Source of the DNA: an uncultured Actinomycetota bacterium | GTDB taxonomy: Bacteria > Actinomycetota > Actinomycetes > JAHEKZ01 | DNA length: 64,000 nucleotides | NCBI GenBank assembly: GCA_963829525.1 | Contig: CAWHIJ010000003.1 | Location: forward strand, 1,856,001-1,920,000 | Direction of reading: 5' to 3' | Shown: piece by piece, positions 37,653 to 44,510 of the stretch | Layout of the letters: each line of letters opens with the position of its first letter | How positions within the stretch are numbered: the stretch's first letter is position 1 | Position numbers and translations under genes: made by a program | Notes under the pieces: model-generated | Told to the model about the DNA's origin: nothing | Databases searched by the model: none | What the model saw: only the letters and a program-made list of their open reading frames with translations

Positions 37653-38942
37653 GTGGTCCACTGGTCGGTCACGCGCATCATCGCCCTCGTTGTCGCCTGC
37701 GTCGGAATTCTCGGTGGAGCCGTAGCCGTCGCGAGTGCGGCGCAGGCCGCCGAGGATCAGCCGACCGGAACTATTCAAGGGTTTCTACGCGACCTCGCCG
37801 GAAACCCAGTAGCAGGCGTCGACGTAACCGCAACGGACGCTGAAGGCTTCTCCGGAGTCGGCACCAGCGACGAGGCAGGGCGATGGGAGATCGAGGTTCC
37901 TGGACCGGGCACCTACACCGTAGAACTTGATGAGGGGACCCTTCCCGACGGTGCGGCGCCGCCGACCATCAACCCCATCGAGGGCGTGGAGGTGACGGGG
38001 TCAACACGTACGGTGCTCTTCACCCTTGGCGCACGCGATCGCAACCTCACCAGCAAGTGGGACCAAGCGGCGCAGTTGAGTTTCGAAGGTTTGCGTTTCG
38101 GCCTCATCATCGCGCTTGCTGCCGTTGGGCTTTCACTCATCTACGGGACAACGGGGCTGACGAACTTCGCGCACGGCGAGATCATCACATTCGGCGCCAT
38201 CATCACGTGGTGGATGAATGTCACCCTGGGAATTCCCTTCGTCATCGCGGCGATCTTGGGCATCGTGTTGTCAGGGGCGTTCGGCTTCGTCAACGACCAG
38301 GCCTTGTGGAAACCTCTGCGTAAACGGCAGACCGGCCTGATCGCGATGATGATCGTCTCGATTGGTTTGGCCCTCGCCCTGCAGAACATCTTCTTGATCT
38401 TCTTCGGAGGCGCAAGTAGACCCTTCGGGGCTTTTGAGACCCAGGCTGGCATCGAGATGGGGCCGGTCAGCCTGACCCCCAAGGACATGGCGGCGATGAT
38501 CATCGCCGCCATCGTCCTCACCCTTGCTGGACTTGCCTTGCTCAAGACCCGGCTGGGCAAGGCAACAAGGGCGGTCTCCGACAATCCCGCGTTGGCGGCG
38601 TCGAGCGGCATCGATGTCGAGCGGGTGATCCTCGTCGTCTGGGTCGTCGGTGCAGCCCTGGCCGGACTCGGAGGCATCCTGCAAGGGCTCACCCAGCAAG
38701 TCTTCCCCCTGCTCGGAGCCCAGAGCCTGCTGCTCATCTTCGCGGCAGTCACGCTGGGCGGACTGGGGACGGCGTTCGGTGCTCTTGTCGGCAGCATCTT
38801 GGTCGGGCTCTTCATCAACCTCTCCACCTTGATCCCAGGAATGACCCCAGAACTGAAGAACGTCGGTGCCCTGCTACTGCTCATCGTTGTGCTCATGGTT
38901 CGGCCACAGGGAATCCTGGGTCGACGGAGCAGGGTCGGCTGA
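37653..38942 (+). CDS. Branched-chain amino acid ABC permease (LivH-like) with an extracellular N-terminal beta-sandwich domain
   Basis: GLSLIYGTTGLTNFAHGE, TRLGKATRAVSDN, RPQGILG. Preceded by a signal peptide and about 100 aa resembling a carboxypeptidase-regulatory-like domain. Confidence 0.88.
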   Translation: MVHWSVTRIIALVVACVGILGGAVAVASAAQAAEDQPTGTIQGFLRDLAGNPVAGVDVTATDAEGFSGVGTSDEAGRWEIEVPGPGTYTVELDEGTLPDGAAPPTINPIEGVEVTGSTRTVLFTLGARDRNLTSKWDQAAQLSFEGLRFGLIIALAAVGLSLIYGTTGLTNFAHGEIITFGAIITWWMNVTLGIPFVIAAILGIVLSGAFGFVNDQALWKPLRKRQTGLIAMMIVSIGLALALQNIFLIFFGGASRPFGAFETQAGIEMGPVSLTPKDMAAMIIAAIVLTLAGLALLKTRLGKATRAVSDNPALAASSGIDVERVILVVWVVGAALAGLGGILQGLTQQVFPLLGAQSLLLIFAAVTLGGLGTAFGALVGSILVGLFINLSTLIPGMTPELKNVGALLLLIVVLMVRPQGILGRRSRVG

Positions 38943-38952
38943 GGAGGCCACT

Positions 38953-39942
38953 ATGGACTGGCAATTCATCTTCACAGCGTCGGTCTCCTACGCACTCGGC
39001 GCCCTGACGGTGGCCTACTGCTTGGCCGCCATCGGGCTCAACCTGCAGTTCGGCTACACAGGTCTGCTCAACTTCGGCCAGGCGGCCTTTCTCGCTGCAG
39101 CTGGGTACGGCATGGCCGTCATGGTCACAACATTCGAGCTCTCCTTCTGGGTCGGCATCACTGTTGGCCTGATCGCGACGATCGTGCTGGCCCTCCTCCT
39201 CGGGCTTCCCACTCTGCGACTCCGCGCCGACTACCTTGCGATCGTGACGATTGCCGCTGCCGAGGTCGTCCGACTGATTGTGCGATCAGTGAAGTTCAAG
39301 GAGACTCTGGGCGGCTCCGACGGCTTGCAGCAGTTCGCCAACCGATTCTACGAGTTGAGCCCGCTCTCGGACACCTTCCGTATCGACTTCGGTCCGTTCC
39401 TGTTCAGCAACCAAGAACTCTGGGTCATGATCGTGGGTTGGTCCCTCGTCGCGTTGTTCTCACTCGTCACTTTCTTGCTGGCGCGCAGCCCCTGGGGCCG
39501 CATTCTCAAGGGCATCCGCGAGGACGAGGACGCGGTGCGCAGCCTTGGGAAGAACGTCTACTGGTACAAGATGCAAGCGCTGATTCTCGGTGCGTTGATG
39601 GCAGGCTTCGGTGGCTTCATCATCGGGATATTCTTCAACGCTGTTTCGCCGGACATCTACGCAACCGCACTTACCTTCGCCATCTACACGATCCTGATTT
39701 TGGGCGGTGCGGCCCGCGTCGCCGGACCCATTCTGGGTGCCATCCTCTTCGGTTTCCTCTTTCAATTCGTCAACGTCACGCTCAGTGAGGCCGTCAATGC
39801 TGACGTCATCACCTTCCTGGACTCGAGCCAGACCGCTCAGGTTCGGCTGGTTCTCGTCGGCATTGGCCTGATGTTGTTGATGATCTACCGTCCACAAGGA
39901 ATTCTCGGAGACCGGAGGGAGATCGCACTTGATGCCCGCTGA
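38953..39942 (+). CDS. Branched-chain amino acid ABC permease (LivM-like)
   Basis: GLNLQFGYTGLLNFGQ, LRLRADYLAIVT, SPWGRILKGIREDE. Confidence 0.92.
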   Translation: MDWQFIFTASVSYALGALTVAYCLAAIGLNLQFGYTGLLNFGQAAFLAAAGYGMAVMVTTFELSFWVGITVGLIATIVLALLLGLPTLRLRADYLAIVTIAAAEVVRLIVRSVKFKETLGGSDGLQQFANRFYELSPLSDTFRIDFGPFLFSNQELWVMIVGWSLVALFSLVTFLLARSPWGRILKGIREDEDAVRSLGKNVYWYKMQALILGALMAGFGGFIIGIFFNAVSPDIYATALTFAIYTILILGGAARVAGPILGAILFGFLFQFVNVTLSEAVNADVITFLDSSQTAQVRLVLVGIGLMLLMIYRPQGILGDRREIALDAR

Positions 39943-40897
39943 CACCGAGGGCGCTGCCGCCCTTGCCGCCGAGACGACTTCGCGTAAGGAGGCGGCCACG
40001 GCTGCGCTTGCCGACGTCGCGAGAGAACCTGGGGCCGCAAAGCCGGACCCTGTCTTGATAGCCGACGGCATTGTGCGCCGGTTCGGCGGCCTGACTGCTG
40101 TCAACGTCGACCACGTCGAGGTTCAGCGTGGAGCAATCACCGCGCTGATCGGACCGAACGGCGCCGGCAAGACGACCTTCTTCAACCTGCTGACCGGGTT
40201 CGACAAGCCCGACGAAGGCACGTGGTCGTTCAACGAGAATTCATTGAACGGTGTAGCTCCTTACAAGGTCGCTCGGATGGGAATGGTTCGTACCTTCCAG
40301 CTCACCAAGGTGCTCTCCAAGCTCACCGTCATCGAGAACATGCGTCTGGGCGCCACGGGACAACGAGGCGAAAGACTCTTCTTCGGGCTCATCCCGCCGC
40401 TTTGGCGCAGCCAGGAACGCTCTATTACCGAACGCGCCGACGACCTCCTCGCTCGCTTCAAGCTTGATGCGAAGCGACAGGACTTTGCCGGCTCGCTCTC
40501 AGGTGGTCAGCGCAAACTACTGGAGATGGCGCGGGCTCTCATGGTCGAGCCTGAGCTCGTCATGCTCGACGAGCCGATGGCTGGCGTGAACCCGGCCCTG
40601 ACCCAGTCACTGCTGGGGCACGTCAAAGACCTTCGCGAGCAGGGCATGACGGTGCTCTTCGTCGAGCACGACATGGACATGGTTCGCGATATCTCCGACT
40701 GGGTCATTGTCATGGCCCAAGGCGCCATCATCGCCGAGGGCCCGCCACTTGAAGTGATGTCCGATCAGCGCGTCATCGATGCCTACCTCGGAGCCCACCA
40801 CGACCTGTCTCTGGCCGAGGTCGCGGAGGAAGTCGGCATCGACGCCCCGGAACTCTTGGACACCGACGGACCCTCCAGCCCTAAGGACGCGTCGTGA
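39932..40897 (+). CDS. ABC ATP-binding protein (LivG-like)
   Basis: FGGLTAV, GPNGAGKTT, RTFQ, LSGGQ, LDEPMAG, VEHDM, AYLG. Confidence 0.92.
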   Translation: MPADTEGAAALAAETTSRKEAATAALADVAREPGAAKPDPVLIADGIVRRFGGLTAVNVDHVEVQRGAITALIGPNGAGKTTFFNLLTGFDKPDEGTWSFNENSLNGVAPYKVARMGMVRTFQLTKVLSKLTVIENMRLGATGQRGERLFFGLIPPLWRSQERSITERADDLLARFKLDAKRQDFAGSLSGGQRKLLEMARALMVEPELVMLDEPMAGVNPALTQSLLGHVKDLREQGMTVLFVEHDMDMVRDISDWVIVMAQGAIIAEGPPLEVMSDQRVIDAYLGAHHDLSLAEVAEEVGIDAPELLDTDGPSSPKDAS

Positions 40898-41730
40898 GCG
40901 ACCAGATCCCGTCTCCCGGCGAAAAGAACCGCGAAGAGGCGCAACTGCTCTCAGACCGAGACAGCAGCTCCGCCCCAATCGACCGGTCAGCCCACCTCGA
41001 GGGTGCCTCCGACTCACTGGTCGTCGCCGACGACCTCATCGCCGGTTACATACCTGGGGTGAACATCCTCAACGGGTGTGACCTGTATGCCAAGCGGGGC
41101 GAGCTCGTGGGCATCATCGGCCCGAACGGTGCGGGAAAGTCAACACTACTCAAGGCGCTCTTTGGCCTGGTGAACGTTCGCTCGGGAAGCGTGACCCTCG
41201 ACGGGCAGGACATCACCAACGTCAAGCCGAACAAGCTGGTCAGCCAGGGGATCGGCTTCGTCCCCCAGAACAACAACGTGTTTCCCAGCTTGACCATCGA
41301 GGAGAACCTACAGATGGGCGCCTTTCAGGCGCCCGGCAAGTTCAAAGAGCGCTTCGAGTTCGTCGCTTCACTCTTCCCTGCCCTGGCTGACCGTCGAAAG
41401 CAGCCAGCTGGCTCACTCTCGGGCGGCGAACGCCAGATGGTCGCCATGAGCCGAGCGCTCATGATGGACCCTTCAGTGATCTTGCTGGACGAGCCGTCGG
41501 CTGGCCTGTCCCCCGTGCTTCAAGACGACGTTTTCATCCGCACCAAGCAGATCAATGCGGCTGGAGTCACGGTCATCATGGTCGAGCAGAACGCCAGCCG
41601 ATGCTTGCAGATCTGTGACCGCGGCTACGTGCTTGACCAAGGTCGCAACGCCTACACGGGCAGCGGCACCTCGTTGCTCAAGGACCCGAAGGTGATTGAG
41701 CTCTACCTCGGTACCCTTGCCAAGACCTGA
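40894..41730 (+). CDS. ABC ATP-binding protein (LivF-like)
   Basis: GPNGAGKST, VPQNNNVF, LSGGERQM, LDEPSAGL, VEQNA, LYLG. Confidence 0.92.
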   Translation: MSDQIPSPGEKNREEAQLLSDRDSSSAPIDRSAHLEGASDSLVVADDLIAGYIPGVNILNGCDLYAKRGELVGIIGPNGAGKSTLLKALFGLVNVRSGSVTLDGQDITNVKPNKLVSQGIGFVPQNNNVFPSLTIEENLQMGAFQAPGKFKERFEFVASLFPALADRRKQPAGSLSGGERQMVAMSRALMMDPSVILLDEPSAGLSPVLQDDVFIRTKQINAAGVTVIMVEQNASRCLQICDRGYVLDQGRNAYTGSGTSLLKDPKVIELYLGTLAKT

Positions 41731-41746
41731 CCGAGCCGAGACATGA

Positions 41747-41778
41747 AGAAGGGGCCCGGCGTCAGCCGGGCCCCTTCT
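41747..41778. terminator. Hairpin terminator between convergent livF-like and substrate-binding protein genes
   Basis: AGAAGGGGCCCGGC-GTCA-GCCGGGCCCCTTCT, a perfect 14-bp stem. Confidence 0.85.
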
Positions 41779-41797
41779 GTCGTTCGCTACTCGGTCA

Positions 41798-43165
41798 CTA
41801 GCTGTTCGGACCGATGCCCTGCTTGACGAGCTCGTCGACCACCTTGGCCGACTCGTCGAAACCAATCAGAACAATCGCGTCCGGGTCGAGAGCCTTGACT
41901 TGGCTGACCTCAGCGCTGAAGGACTGCGCAGTGGGGTCGTAGAAGATCGCCTTTTCAACGCTGTCTGGCTCAGTCACCACCGTGCCGCCACCCTCTTCGA
42001 ACGGGATGTTGGTGTACTTCGCCAAGCCCTCACCATAGGCATCCTGCAGCGACAGGATGGCCACGTTAGTGCGACCGTCCTCAAGCATGAGGTTCGCCAG
42101 AATGCGGCCCTGCAGCACGTCCGCGGGAGCGGTACGGAAGAAGAGCCCGCCGTCCTTGGCCGTGGTCAGGTCCGGCGAGGTGTTTGCCGGCGAGATCTGC
42201 AGAATGCCGGCATCAGTCACCTGCTTCAGCGTGTTGAGGCTGACGCTGGACGAGGCGGCACCGACGATGGCGTCGACACCCTTGTTGATGTGGCTCGCGA
42301 TGGTCTGCGCACCCTTCTCGAAGTTCGAAGAGTCGCTGGAGTCACCTGGGATCCACACGATCGGCTTGCCGAGCACGCCGCCCTCGTCGTTGATCTCGCC
42401 GATAGCGAGCTCGACGGCAGCAACCTCGGGCGGGCCGAGCGAGGCAAGTGATCCGGTCAGTGGCAGGTAGCCACCAATCTGGAGCTGCCCGTCAGCACCG
42501 TCGTTCTTCGTGTCGGTCAGCGCAGGCGGCGTGCCCTCGGTCGGAGCGACTGTGTCGTCGATGTAGGTCAGCGCTTCGCCGGGGGCGTTGTAACCAGGGA
42601 CGGTGTTCTGCGCGTCGTACTGGTAGATACCGATCGACGCCGAAGTCGGGTCACCGAACGAGTCGAACTCGATGGGTCCGGAGACACCGTCATAGTCGAT
42701 GTCCTCGCCCTGCTTGATCAGGTCGTTGCAGTCAGCGAACGTCGTGCACTTGGTGCCGTTGGCCGACACTTCCTGCATCTGCGCTGCCATGTCGCGACCA
42801 GCGTCAGACTTCGCCTGCTGGGCGGCAAGAGCGGTGACGATCACCGCGTCGTAGGACTCTGGTGAGTACGAGTAGCCGATCTTCTTCAGGCTCGGGTCCA
42901 CCTCGTTGAGGCGCGCCTTGAGCGTGTCGTCGATCTGAGCGCCGGGGAGCGTCCCCTTCACTCCCTCAAGAGTGCCTGGGGCAAGCTCACCCAGAGGGCC
43001 GTTACCCAGGTTGCCGTCGACGAGGTAGAGCGGCGTACCAGACGCAGCAGGTTCGGTGGCGGTGTCCGTGGTGTTTCCACCGTCGTCGCTGCCACAGGCG
43101 GCGAGCACAATGCCCGCAGCTCCAGCGACGGCGACCAGACGCCAGGTGGCGTTTGCTCGAATCAT
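41798..43165 (-). CDS. ABC substrate-binding lipoprotein (LivJ/LivK-type, type I periplasmic binding fold), circularly permuted
   Basis: LAAC lipobox. The usual N-terminal motif (LQIGGYLPLTGSLASLG..INDEGGVLG) lies at aa 228 onward, while the usual C-terminal motifs (ESYDA, IDYDGVSGPIEFD..GD, IGIYQY) lie at aa 100-185. Confidence 0.9.
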   Translation of the reverse strand: MIRANATWRLVAVAGAAGIVLAACGSDDGGNTTDTATEPAASGTPLYLVDGNLGNGPLGELAPGTLEGVKGTLPGAQIDDTLKARLNEVDPSLKKIGYSYSPESYDAVIVTALAAQQAKSDAGRDMAAQMQEVSANGTKCTTFADCNDLIKQGEDIDYDGVSGPIEFDSFGDPTSASIGIYQYDAQNTVPGYNAPGEALTYIDDTVAPTEGTPPALTDTKNDGADGQLQIGGYLPLTGSLASLGPPEVAAVELAIGEINDEGGVLGKPIVWIPGDSSDSSNFEKGAQTIASHINKGVDAIVGAASSSVSLNTLKQVTDAGILQISPANTSPDLTTAKDGGLFFRTAPADVLQGRILANLMLEDGRTNVAILSLQDAYGEGLAKYTNIPFEEGGGTVVTEPDSVEKAIFYDPTAQSFSAEVSQVKALDPDAIVLIGFDESAKVVDELVKQGIGPNS

Positions 43166-43417
43166 TCATCACTCCTTGCCGATCGGGCTAGATAGCCCAG
43201 GGCCCGGCGCTGTGGCCGGATGATGATCGAAAACTAGCCCCCGAAGGCGGTCAGCGCAGCCCGAGAAGGGCGTCTTGGGCCCGGTCGTTGCGGCATCGTG
43301 ACCTGCAAGTGACGTTCTGTCACCTTTCGCCGTGGAATCTCACCCGGTCCAGGCTCAGAACGATCGGGGGCTCATCAGTAGACTTCCGTCGCCCCGCCGG
43401 GAGGCGGGCTGTGCATT

Positions 43418-43499
43418 GCCCCGGTGGCGGAATTGGCAGACGCGGCGGATTCAAAATCCGTTGCCGAAAGGCATGAGGGTTCGAGTCCCTCCCGGGGCA
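43418..43499 (+). tRNA. tRNA-Leu(CAA), CCA end not encoded
   Basis: GCCCCGG/CCGGGGC acceptor stem; D-arm GGCGGAATTGGCAGACGC; anticodon arm GCGGA-TTCAAAA-TCCGT; long variable arm TGCCGAAAGGCA; T-loop GGTTCGAGTCC. Confidence 0.96.
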
Positions 43500-43512
43500 C
43501 CCTCAGGCGGGG

Positions 43513-43905
43513 TCAGGGAGCCGCGATGCGGCCCAGCACCCCGTTGACGAAGCCGGGTGACTCGTCGGTTGACAGCTCCTTGGCCAGTTCGACGGCCTCA
43601 TCGATGGCCACCGCAGGGGCGATGTCCGGCCCCCAGCGCAACTCAAAGGTGGCCAGCCGCAGCAGCGCCCGGTCGACAGCTGGCATCCGGTCCAGGCTCC
43701 AGTCGATGGCGTTCGCCTCGATCAACGCATCAATCTCCTCGGCATGCTCAACGACCCCCGAGACGAGGGCCTCGGTGTAGGCGTTGCGGGCCGGGTCCCC
43801 GCGCCCTGCGCGCTCGGCCAGAACCACGCTGACCGGCTCGCCCCGCTGATCAGCCTCAAAGAGGATGTCCAGCGCTCGCTTACGTGCTTTGTGTCGGGCT
43901 CCCAC
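43513..43905 (-). CDS. nusB: Transcription antitermination factor NusB
   Basis: ARHKARKRALDILFEAD, RMPAVDRALLR, IDEAVELAK, FVNGVL. Confidence 0.96.
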   Translation of the reverse strand: MGARHKARKRALDILFEADQRGEPVSVVLAERAGRGDPARNAYTEALVSGVVEHAEEIDALIEANAIDWSLDRMPAVDRALLRLATFELRWGPDIAPAVAIDEAVELAKELSTDESPGFVNGVLGRIAAP

Positions 43906-43908
43906 GGG

Positions 43909-44466
43909 TCAGGCGCGACCGAGGTAGCTGCCGTCGCGGGTGTCCACCCGGATCCGCTCTCCCTGGGTGATGAACAGCGGCACGCCGACCTCGAAGCCTG
44001 TCTCCAGGGTGGCTGGCTTGGTTCCACCAGTCGAACGGTCACCCTGCAGGCCCGGCTCGGTGTAGGTGATCTCAAGCTCGACGGCGGCCGGCAGCTCGAC
44101 ATAAAGGGCAATGCCCTCGTGAATCGCCACCGTGGCGTTCTGGCCCTCGAGCATGAAGTGGGAAGCGTCCCCCACCGTTTGCGCGGGAACGTGCAGCTGG
44201 TCGTAGGAGGCGGTGTCCATAAAGACGAAGTCCTCGCCGTCCTGGTACAGATACTGCATCTCTCGCTTGTCGACGCTAGCGGTCTCGACCTTCACGCCAG
44301 CATTGAACGTCTTGTCGACGACCTTTCCGGACAGAACGTTCTTGAGCTTGGTGCGGACGAAGGCACCGCCCTTGCCGGGCTTCACGTGCTGGAACTCGAT
44401 GACCGTCCAAAGTCCGCCATCGATATTGAGGACAAGACCGTTCTTGAGGTCGTTTGTGGTGGCCAC
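43909..44466 (-). CDS. efp: Elongation factor P
   Basis: [40 protein letters not shown]. Confidence 0.98.
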
Positions 44467-44510
44467 AGCGCGTTCGTCTCCTCGATGAGGGTTCTGGCCG
44501 AGCGACGCGC

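What the first reader, a model, noticed from the sequence alone, without database searches (positions are those of the whole stretch)
41798..43165. Natural circular permutation of an ABC substrate-binding lipoprotein
Seen: after the lipobox Cys24 and a short tether, aa 45-187 (PLYLVDGN..KGTLPG..ESYDA..IDYDGVSGPIEFD..GDP..IGIYQY) are what normally form the C-terminal third of LivJ-type proteins. A linker of about 35 aa follows. The usual N-terminus (DGQLQIGGYLPLTG..GAASS..SPANTS..FFRTAP..DAYGEGL..PDAIVLIG) comes next and ends at QGIGPNS*, the point where PLYLVDGN normally continues. The ORF is uninterrupted and has no duplicated segment. Inference: a true permutant that moves the membrane tether to the other lobe of the fold.
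Basis: partly seen in the sequence, partly recalled or inferred. Interest (0 to 1): 0.72.

Follow-up and report, generated by a model that had tools for sequence, protein, structure and literature searches.

The report
Circularly permuted LivJ-type binding lipoprotein
The nutrient-binding lipoprotein of this actinobacterial ABC importer really has its last third moved to the front of the chain, and relatives still show the normal, tandem-fused and re-cut forms that explain how such a swap arises.

Summary
ORF 41798-43165 (-) encodes a 455-aa lipoprotein. Residues 43-187 match the C-terminal third of normal-order relatives at 58-63% identity. Residues 207-454 match their N-terminal two thirds at 51-56%. 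These are two non-collinear BLASTP alignments meeting exactly at the predicted junction.

It is not an assembly error. 87 of 318 fetched relatives share the swapped order. So do 16 of 19 other genomes of the same family at full length, plus two partial or split copies.

AlphaFold2 predicts a compact fold (pLDDT 88.8). Its secondary-structure order is a rotation of that of the normal-order relative.

Normal and swapped genes occupy the same locus, efp-nusB > gene > < livFGMH. Natural tandem fusions exist. Two cut sites occur. A single origin of all swapped forms is rejected (AU p 0.0003).

Most likely origin: in-situ duplication, fusion and trimming.

A permuted type I binding protein is already published (TpMglB-2, PMC4990184), so this is a new variant of a known kind. 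Six literature searches found no LivJ-type case. This scan has reported look-alike permuted proteins on other DNA. The ligand is unknown.

The parts
41798..43165 (-). Whole gene of the permuted binding lipoprotein (455 aa plus stop at 41798-41800)
   Evidence: ORF list and translation. 100% match in the window's own genome, which holds only one other, distant relative (33% identity).
43097..43165 (-). Signal peptide, aa 1-23
   Evidence: Hydrophobic N-terminus. 12 of 18 residues are identical to the signal peptide of normal-order P0049. pLDDT is below 50 in the model.
43094..43105 (-). Lipobox L-A-A-C; Cys24 is the predicted lipidated residue
   Evidence: The sequence shows it directly. C24 is invariant in 66 of 66 permuted sequences and in 60 of 60 normal-order sequences. 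That it is a lipobox is pattern knowledge.
43040..43093 (-). Flexible tether, aa 25-42
   Evidence: pLDDT is below 50 for aa 1-40. The composition is low in complexity.
42605..43039 (-). Segment B, aa 43-187: the part that is the C-terminal third in normal-order relatives
   Evidence: BLASTP: query 43-187 to P0049 275-417, 63% identity, E 6e-54. To P0094 it is 58%. Conserved D50-G51-N52, Y105-D106 and C140/C146 match D282-G283-N284, Y335-D336 and C370/C376 of the normal-order alignment.
42488..42604 (-). Connector, aa 188-226. aa 188-205 correspond to the normal C-terminal tail strand; aa 206-226 are the new link back to strand 1
   Evidence: The AF2 model is confident here (block means 90-97), with strand 200-205. 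That strand matches the terminal strand 425-430 of the P0049 model. BLASTP extends from segment A into aa 207-226, aligned to the tether of P0049. Similarity of the short pieces is mostly not significant.
41801..42487 (-). Segment A, aa 227-455: the part that is the N-terminal two thirds in normal-order relatives
   Evidence: Pfam PF13458, aa 228-451 to HMM 2-215, 104.7 bits against a cut-off of 31.7. BLASTP 56% to P0049 35-273. VIA-align: model 226-455 to Atu2422 chain 1-243, Z 19.1, rmsd 2.2, 220 aligned.
37653..41730 (+). Convergent livH-livM-livG-livF-type ABC importer genes (37653-38942, 38866-39942, 39929-40897, 40894-41730)
   Evidence: ORFs. Best NCBIfam matches are LivH/UrtB, LivM, LivG and LivF, all below the equivalog cut-offs. 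The convergent arrangement recurs in 32 of 37 permuted loci and 33 of 41 normal-order loci.
43417..43502 (+). tRNA-Leu(CAA) between nusB and the binding-protein gene, on the opposite strand
   Evidence: ARAGORN and Rfam RF00005, 57.9 bits. I infer from it that the binding-protein gene has its own promoter in 43166-43416.
43513..44466 (-). nusB (43513-43905) and efp (43909-44466) upstream on the same strand: the synteny marker
   Evidence: ORFs. tblastn finds both upstream of 30 of 37 permuted loci and 9 of 41 normal-order loci. The gene names come from my reading of the translations and from the conserved order.

Best explanation
The gene encodes the working substrate-binding lipoprotein of the adjacent LivHMGF-type (HAAT family) ABC importer of an uncultured actinobacterium. 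Related records are titled Candidatus Nanopelagicales or Actinomycetes.

The protein keeps the two-lobed Venus-flytrap fold of LivJ-type proteins, but the chain is circularly permuted. After the lipidated Cys24 and a roughly 20-residue tether it starts with the last strand of lobe 2. It then runs through what is normally the C-terminal third (B). It crosses back to strand 1 of lobe 1 through an ordered connector of about 20 residues, and ends after the helix that normally precedes its own first strand.

Inferred consequences:
- The lipid tether hangs from lobe 2 instead of lobe 1.
- There are four inter-lobe crossings instead of three.
- The binding-site residues are unchanged, so ligand capture and docking on LivH/LivM should proceed as in normal-order relatives.

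Most likely origin: the normal-order gene at this locus duplicated in tandem and fused (signal peptide-A-B-A-B). An in-frame deletion then removed the first A and a truncation removed the last B. The original signal peptide and lipobox were kept.

The same kind of switch happened several times in this protein family, at two preferred cut sites.
For: SHOWN
- Swapped-order alignments at 51-63% identity that meet at one point.
- Collinear alignment of aa 46-453 to residues 276-664 of the natural tandem fusion P0122 (45% identity, E 1e-100).
- No internal repeat.
- In one BLASTP alignment, 49 of the 120 listed homologues cover at least 90% of the query, down to 50% identity. Some lie on contigs of 2.27 and 0.98 Mb.
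- Architecture count over all 318 fetched proteins: 215 A-B, 87 B-A, 3 A-B-A-B, 3 A-B-A, 10 partial or other.
- Same family: 16 of 19 other genomes hold a full-length collinear copy, 2 hold a partial or split copy in B-A order, and 1 (88% complete) holds none. In all 11 genomes of other families where both halves matched, they lie in A-B order.
- The AF2 model has pLDDT 88.8 and pTM 0.86; only aa 1-40 are disordered.
- Element order in the model: part A is E-H-E-H-E-H-E-E-H-E-H-E-H-E-H in both models. Part B is E-H-E-H-H-H-E-H-E-E-E in P0049, and the same plus one short extra helix in this protein, but placed first.
- Sequential structure aligners match only aa 226-455, to the N-terminal 220-240 residues of LivJ-type structures.
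- The same conserved residues occur in both forms.
- The genome holds only this copy plus one 33%-identical relative.
- The locus efp-nusB > gene > < livFGMH is shared by permuted loci and by 9 normal-order loci.
- The tandem fusions P0123 and P0173 have diverged copies. Copy 1 groups with copy 1 and copy 2 with copy 2.
- There are two cut sites.
- AU tests: all 22 B-A rows as one clade is rejected (lnL 250 lower, p 0.0003). The 15 site-1 rows as one clade is rejected (lnL 250 lower, p 8e-66). The 7 site-2 rows as one clade is not rejected.

INFERRED
- Lipidation, ligand binding, docking, the lobe assignment, and the order of the duplication and trimming steps.
Against: - No experiment and no solved structure exists. 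The fold is a prediction, and no permutation-aware superposition was possible.
- Similarity of the connector to the normal C-terminal tail and N-terminal tether is weak. Of 40 short-segment comparisons only one clearly beats shuffles (P0092 against the P0069 tail, 0 of 2000). For this protein the best is 33 of 2000, which does not survive 40 tests.
- The two copies in tandem fusion P0122 are almost identical and sit on an 8-kb metagenome contig, so an assembly artefact cannot be excluded for that one.
- No tandem intermediate was found within this protein's own lineage or locus.
- The trees are quick searches. One constrained tree was 18 lnL units better than the free one, so counts of changes (9-10) are unreliable. 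Changes cannot be told apart as gains or reversions.
- The cut-site groups were defined after a first tree had been seen.
- No NCBIfam equivalog is reached (83.8 bits against 477 for LivJ/K), so the ligand is unknown.
Confidence: 0.85

Rival explanations
1. Assembly or annotation artefact: two pieces of a normal gene were joined in the wrong order in this assembly.
For: None found. Metagenome-derived genomes can contain misjoins.
Against: - The same order appears in 16 full-length copies among 19 other genomes of the family, in 37 of 80 public genome loci, and in 87 of 318 protein clusters.
- Contigs from three separate DNA studies lie on the gene without any joint. One identical 568-base contig (42425-42992) spans the whole connector.
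- The frame is open and conserved.
Confidence: 0.01
2. The chain order is real, but the protein does not work as a monomeric flytrap. It could be a decaying relic, or it could complete its fold only by swapping segments with a second chain.
For: No binding or structural data exist. One relative (G010) has the gene split by a frame change and a TGA.
Against: - Intact copies are 58-96% identical across a family.
- The same conserved residues occur as in normal-order proteins.
- The monomer model is confident, pTM 0.86.
- It is the only close binding protein beside an intact importer in a 97% complete genome.
Confidence: 0.05
3. The permutation arose by gene fission and re-fusion in reverse order (or another rearrangement), not through a tandem-fused duplicate.
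For: No tandem intermediate was seen in this protein's own lineage. Connector homology to tail plus tether is weak for this protein.
Against: - Tandem fusions exist in at least two other lineages of the family, and one is old.
- The permuted protein aligns collinearly across a fusion junction.
- The ancestral signal peptide and lipobox are retained at the front. An internal deletion explains this directly; a fission-fusion route would need the signal to be re-acquired.
- The model's strand 200-205 sits where the normal C-terminal tail strand sits.
Confidence: 0.12
4. All permuted forms descend from one ancient event and were spread by transfer; the apparent multiple origins are tree error.
For: - Most permuted proteins share the same cut site 1.
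- The quick trees are poorly resolved (21 of 55 branches open).
- The free search missed a better tree.
Against: - The AU test rejects one clade for all B-A rows (p 0.0003) and for site-1 rows (p 8e-66).
- A second cut site about 25 residues away exists.
- Starred branches force at least 3 or 5 changes.
Confidence: 0.05

Closest known systems
TpMglB-2 (Tp0684) of Treponema pallidum, proposed 'Type Ic / Cluster Bc' binding proteins (Brautigam et al. 2016, PMC4990184; passages read)
   Same: - A natural circular permutation of a type I / cluster B ABC binding protein that is a membrane-tethered lipoprotein.
- The fold and ligand-induced closure are retained there.
- The permutation needs a fourth inter-lobe crossing there; I infer the same here.
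- The authors also raised tethering as a possible reason.
   Different: - It belongs to a different subfamily (glucose/galactose-binding, not LivJ/HAAT type).
- The cut is different: there the first three strands of the N lobe moved to the C-terminus; here the last third moved to the N-terminus, with the cut inside lobe 2.
- There the moved part had little sequence similarity and the authors could not settle its origin. Here both parts are 51-63% identical to normal-order proteins at the same locus, tandem fusions survive, and the switch recurs.
- I did not test sequence relatedness to Tp0684.
Normal-order LivJ/LivK-type Leu/Ile/Val-binding proteins and relatives (Pfam Peripla_BP_6; e.g. 1z15, 3ipc/3ip5 Atu2422, 4gnr, 4n0q)
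   Same: - The family signature is present.
- Structure match of part A at Z 17-19.
- The close relative P0049 aligns collinearly to them (4gnr 7-310, 3ipc 8-318).
- The same kind of importer genes sit next door.
   Different: - The chain order is rotated.
- None of the 60 listed PDB sequences of the 139 matched matches the permuted profile collinearly.
- No Foldseek or VIA match covers more than about 230-270 columns.
- The score is far below the LivJ/K subfamily cut-off (83.8 against 477), so substrate identity with LivJ is not claimed.
Permutation by duplication, as proposed for DNA methyltransferases, saposin/swaposin and others (recalled from the general literature, not read here)
   Same: Duplicate, fuse, then lose the outer ends. 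Here all three states (A-B, A-B-A-B, B-A) exist in one family.
   Different: - A signal peptide and lipobox had to be kept, so the first loss must be an internal in-frame deletion rather than a new start.
- Two cut sites and several independent switches occur.
Engineered circularly permuted periplasmic binding proteins for biosensors (search listings only)
   Same: They show that binding proteins of this fold tolerate new termini.
   Different: They are man-made. None of the listings concerned a natural LivJ-type permutant.

Membership tests
LivJ-type / HAAT-family substrate-binding protein (Pfam Peripla_BP_6, type I / cluster B) | Significant match to the family profile | tested here: met
   PF13458 at 104.7 bits against a cut-off of 31.7. 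Only HMM positions 2-215 of 343 are covered, by aa 228-451.
LivJ-type / HAAT-family substrate-binding protein (Pfam Peripla_BP_6, type I / cluster B) | Presence of the C-terminal third of the fold | tested here: met
   It is present but placed first. aa 43-187 are 63% identical to residues 275-417 of P0049, and P0049 itself aligns collinearly to solved LivJ-type chains.
LivJ-type / HAAT-family substrate-binding protein (Pfam Peripla_BP_6, type I / cluster B) | Normal N-to-C order of the fold's elements | tested here: not met
   BLASTP alignments are non-collinear. The element order in the AF2 models is rotated. This is the finding itself: the protein is a homologue with changed topology.
LivJ-type / HAAT-family substrate-binding protein (Pfam Peripla_BP_6, type I / cluster B) | Two-lobed alpha/beta flytrap fold | tested here: inconclusive
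   The AF2 model is confident. Part A superposes on LivJ-type structures at Z 19.1. Part B could not be superposed with sequential aligners, and there is no experimental structure.
LivJ-type / HAAT-family substrate-binding protein (Pfam Peripla_BP_6, type I / cluster B) | Encoded beside LivH/LivM permeases and LivG/LivF ATPases | tested here: met
   Convergent livHMGF-type genes end 68 bases from the gene's stop. This is conserved in 32 of 37 permuted loci.
LivJ-type / HAAT-family substrate-binding protein (Pfam Peripla_BP_6, type I / cluster B) | Binds branched-chain or other amino acids | not testable with these tools
   Only sub-threshold matches to the LivJ/K and urea-binding models. Conserved pocket-like residues are shared with normal-order relatives.
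Natural circular permutant (general definition) | Two segments homologous to a relative in swapped order, together covering the fold | tested here: met
Natural circular permutant (general definition) | Collinear alignment to a tandem duplicate of the normal form | tested here: met
   aa 46-453 align in one piece to residues 276-664 of the natural tandem fusion P0122.
Natural circular permutant (general definition) | No residual duplication in the permuted chain | tested here: met
   Self-BLASTP gives only the identity hit.
TpMglB-2-like 'Type Ic / Cluster Bc' | The first three N-lobe strands are moved to the C-terminus (the cut described in PMC4990184) | tested here: not met
   Here the cut lies between the helix ending ..QGIGPNS and the strand ..LYLVDGN. 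This is equivalent to about residue 220 of LivJ.
TpMglB-2-like 'Type Ic / Cluster Bc' | Sequence membership in the MglB glucose/galactose-binding family | not tested
   No MglB-type chain appears among the 60 listed PDB matches, but the lists are cut and no direct comparison was run.

The most novel reading that the evidence does not exclude
This actinobacterial LivJ-type family is a living evolutionary series. A two-lobed receptor has been re-cut at least three times independently, at two preferred points, through long-lived tandem-fused intermediates. In one whole bacterial family the re-cut form has replaced the normal gene at the same locus.

The boldest reading is that the re-cut is adaptive. 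Hanging the lipid tether from lobe 2 and adding a fourth hinge strand would change opening-closing dynamics or docking geometry on the permease. This would explain why tethered binding proteins, and kinase sensor domains such as P0190, keep arriving at the same cut.
Probability: 0.2. Interest if true: 0.75.

Novelty: new variant of a known kind. Interest (0 to 1): 0.55.

Why it matters
Natural circular permutations with close, unpermuted orthologues at the same locus are rare. Rarer still are cases where the fused intermediates survive and the event has recurred.

This family would let the duplicate-fuse-trim model be tested on real proteins rather than inferred. It would also allow a direct test of whether chain connectivity and tether position matter for a Venus-flytrap receptor working with an ABC importer. 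One would compare ligand affinity, closure kinetics and transport for orthologous A-B and B-A proteins.

It also gives biosensor engineers two naturally proven new-terminus sites in a LivJ-type scaffold.

For annotation, it explains why domain models cover only half of these proteins.

Tried and rejected
- Promoter and terminator scan of 41600-43600: nothing found (0 promoters against 0.2 expected; 0 terminators against 1.2 expected).
- Rfam on 41000-44500: only the tRNA.
- hhalign of the permuted against the normal-order alignment returned only the A-part match, so it added nothing on order.
- Foldseek and VIA-align are sequential. They align only aa 226-455, so they could neither confirm nor deny the placement of part B.
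- Connector homology tests against normal C-tails and N-tethers: 40 comparisons, almost all no better than shuffles.
- NCBIfam: no family cut-off reached for the binding protein or the permeases.
- Sequencing runs: 20 runs listed, 4 laid. Only short contigs were obtained and none spans the whole gene. Contigs from an RNA library lie on the gene at 90-99% identity, which does not show transcription. Habitat labels were not used.
- Earlier notes near this place in the same genome: none.
- Complex prediction with LivH/LivM was not run, because adjacency alone did not justify the job.
- Counts of changes on the quick trees (9, 10) were not used as numbers of events, because a better tree was missed by the free search.
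Full report
WHAT IS THERE

The ORF at 41798-43165 on the minus strand is open for 455 codons. It starts with a hydrophobic signal peptide and an L-A-A-C lipobox (Cys24). Pfam's Peripla_BP_6 model matches only residues 228-451, and these map to the first 215 of its 343 positions. Against solved structures, the same residues match the N-terminal halves of LivJ-type chains. Residues 98-120 and 148-189 give weak extra matches to positions 283-303 and 299-340 of such chains.

THE DECISIVE TEST

It gives two strong alignments in swapped order.
- With P0049 (431 aa): query 207-454 to subject 35-273 (56% identity, E 2e-83), and query 43-187 to subject 275-417 (63%, E 6e-54).
- With P0094 (423 aa; a source names it Thalassiella azotivora): 51% and 58%.

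The chain ends with ..QGIGPNS and its mature part begins ..PLYLVDGN. In the normal-order proteins these motifs are neighbours. The signal peptide also matches that of the normal-order proteins. Self-comparison finds no repeat.

NOT AN ARTEFACT

- Of the 120 best homologues listed, 49 cover at least 90% of the query in one alignment, at 50-90% identity. Some lie on contigs of 2.27 Mb and 0.98 Mb.
The result was 215 A-B (normal), 87 B-A (permuted), 3 A-B-A-B, 3 A-B-A and 10 partial or other.
- The window's genome is 2.96 Mb in 3 contigs and 97% complete. It holds only this copy and one 33%-identical relative.
- Among 19 other genomes of the same family, 16 have a full-length collinear copy (42-96% identity). 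One has a partial copy, one has a copy split by a frame change with a TGA, and one (88% complete) has none.
- Both halves were matched in 11 genomes of other families of the class, and in all 11 they lie in normal order. Four of these (G025, G033, G042, G048) are unpublished genomes. The statement holds for the remaining 7 of 7.
- Contigs from three DNA studies lie on the gene without joints. One identical contig spans the whole connector.

FOLD

With an alignment of 66 permuted sequences, AlphaFold2 gives pLDDT 88.8 and pTM 0.86. Only residues 1-40 are disordered. A model of normal-order P0049, built from 60 sequences, gives pLDDT 87.7 and pTM 0.83.

The order of secondary-structure elements is a rotation:
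- Part A has the same 15 elements in both models.
- Part B has the same elements, plus one short extra helix here, but comes first in this protein.
- The strand at 200-205 corresponds to the terminal strand 425-430 of P0049.
- The truly new connection is therefore about residues 206-226. It is predicted with confidence (block means 90-97). The equivalent N-terminal tether of P0049 is disordered there.

Foldseek and VIA-align are sequential aligners. They match only residues 226-455, to the first 220-240 residues of LivJ-type structures (best: Atu2422, Z 19.1, rmsd 2.2, 220 aligned). No listed PDB chain matches the permuted profile collinearly (60 of 139 matches shown).

I had no coordinates, so the lobe assignment rests on mapping. 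The cut corresponds to about LivJ residue 220. That position is inside the C-domain by LivJ's published domain limits, which I recall and did not compute.

FUNCTION

The conserved positions of the permuted alignment are D50-G51-N52, Y105-D106, C140, C146, S306, S325, T329, D375, Y377-G378 and Y409. They correspond one-to-one to conserved positions of the normal-order alignment: D282-G283-N284, Y335-D336, C370, C376, S132, S151, T155, D201, Y203-G204 and Y228. Several lie in motifs that in LivJ carry ligand contacts (recalled). I therefore infer an unchanged binding site.

Four convergent genes encode LivH-, LivM-, LivG- and LivF-like subunits. No NCBIfam equivalog cut-off is met, so I do not name a substrate.

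A tRNA-Leu(CAA) on the other strand separates the gene from nusB. The gene must therefore have its own promoter, but the consensus scan found none.

ORIGIN

Same locus. In 80 public genome loci I located the neighbours by tblastn.
- 37 loci are permuted, 41 are normal-order and 2 are partial.
- livFGMH lies convergent downstream of 32 of 37 permuted and 33 of 41 normal-order genes.
- efp-nusB lies upstream on the same strand of 30 of 37 permuted genes and 9 of 41 normal-order genes.
- Contig ends lower all of these counts.
- Normal and permuted genes thus occupy the same place, so the switch happened in situ.

Tandem fusions. A search among longer proteins found natural fusions with one signal peptide followed by A-B-A-B.
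- P0122 (826 aa): this protein aligns to it collinearly across the copy junction (412 columns, 45% identity). Its two copies are nearly identical, so an artefact is not excluded.
- P0123 and P0173 (812 and 813 aa; P0123 is on a 3.7-Mb contig): their copies have diverged, and they group copy 1 with copy 1 and copy 2 with copy 2. That fusion is old and stable.
- P0219 has five units.

Connector. The retained ancestral signal peptide argues for an internal deletion of the first A rather than a new start. Direct similarity of the connector to the normal tail and tether is weak for this protein (best 33 of 2000 shuffles). It is clear only for P0092 against the P0069 tail (0 of 2000) among 40 comparisons.

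RECURRENCE

Two cut sites exist.
- Site 1, as here.
- Site 2, about 25 residues further on. It keeps the ..YGVDGN.GNALGE.. strand at the C-terminus and starts at G.L.G.KGT.P.

Trees were built from segments re-ordered to A-then-B.
- FastTree, 146 rows: 96 A-B, 44 B-A and 6 tandem copies. Rows with short matches, and most near-duplicates, were left out. Permuted proteins do not form one group. At least 5 changes are forced by well-supported branches.
- IQ-TREE quick, 58 rows: at least 3 changes are forced.

AU tests:
- All 22 permuted rows as one clade: rejected (lnL 250 lower, p 0.0003).
- The 15 site-1 rows as one clade: rejected (lnL 250 lower, p 8e-66).
- The 7 site-2 rows as one clade: not rejected. 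That tree was 18 units better than the free search (p 0.78). This also warns that the quick trees are imperfect.
- The four rows representing the permuted groups seen at the efp-nusB locus (P0001, P0032, P0058, P0092) already form one side of a branch, with support 75. One event for this lineage is compatible with the data but not shown.

The tests cannot tell gains from reversions. The cut-site groups were defined after the first tree had been seen, although from sequence features alone.

KNOWN OR NEW

I ran six full-text searches. They found one natural permuted ABC binding protein: TpMglB-2 of Treponema pallidum (PMC4990184; passages read). Its authors proposed a 'Type Ic / Cluster Bc' class and noted a fourth hinge crossing and a possible link with tethering.

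That protein is a sugar binder with a different cut, and its origin could not be settled. I found no report of a natural LivJ-type permutant. PMC8694067 only lists permutation as a general mechanism. Other hits concern engineered sensors (listings only). Subscription journals are not covered by the library.

This scan has already reported look-alike permuted actinobacterial proteins, and archaeal LivJ-type cases, on other DNA. I saw those notes after my own analysis and they agree with it.

VERDICT

This is a real, functional-looking circular permutant and a member of a large permuted lineage. It is a new variant of a known kind of rearrangement. It is attractive as a natural series for testing how permutations arise and whether tether position matters.

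Noticed in passing
window 43417-43502 (+): A tRNA-Leu(CAA) sits between nusB and the binding-protein gene on the opposite strand. The binding-protein gene is therefore not co-transcribed with efp-nusB.
   Followed up: partly
window 37770-37928 (+), aa 40-92 of the LivH-like permease: The permease carries an N-terminal extension of about 140 residues with a CarboxypepD_reg-like domain (35.0 bits against a cut-off of 32.3). It lies ahead of the BPD_transp_2 domain, which starts at aa 144.
   Followed up: no
window 39929-40897 and 40894-41730 (+): The LivG-like and LivF-like ATPases have N-terminal extensions of about 40 and 50 residues before the profile matches begin. The true start codons are uncertain.
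   Followed up: no
protein P0190 (777 aa): A Ser/Thr protein kinase domain (aa 14-257) is followed by a permuted (cut site 2) LivJ-type domain at about aa 382-754. The permuted module therefore also serves as a kinase sensor domain.
   Followed up: partly
proteins P0125-P0165 (about 846 aa), e.g. P0153: These are fusions of a sugar-type SBP_bac_1 domain (aa 65-356) with a normal-order LivJ-type domain (aa 468-776) in one chain. Some are named Ilumatobacteraceae by a source.
   Followed up: partly
protein P0219 (1943 aa): Five LivJ-type units lie in tandem in one chain.
   Followed up: partly
G010:C5:74167-75521: In one genome of the same genus the permuted gene is read in two overlapping pieces (aa 1-192 with one TGA, and aa 186-455). 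This is either a frameshifted pseudogene or a sequencing error.
   Followed up: no
G004:C4:170194-171525 and G011:C48:9413-10747: Two genomes of the same genus hold only a 42-46% identical permuted protein, instead of the 70-96% identical one seen in the others. This may be a different permuted lineage or locus.
   Followed up: no
window 42728-42748 (-), Cys140 and Cys146: Two cysteines six residues apart are invariant in all 66 permuted sequences. They are conserved in the normal-order alignment too (C370, C376). This suggests a disulfide in the extracytoplasmic protein.
   Followed up: no
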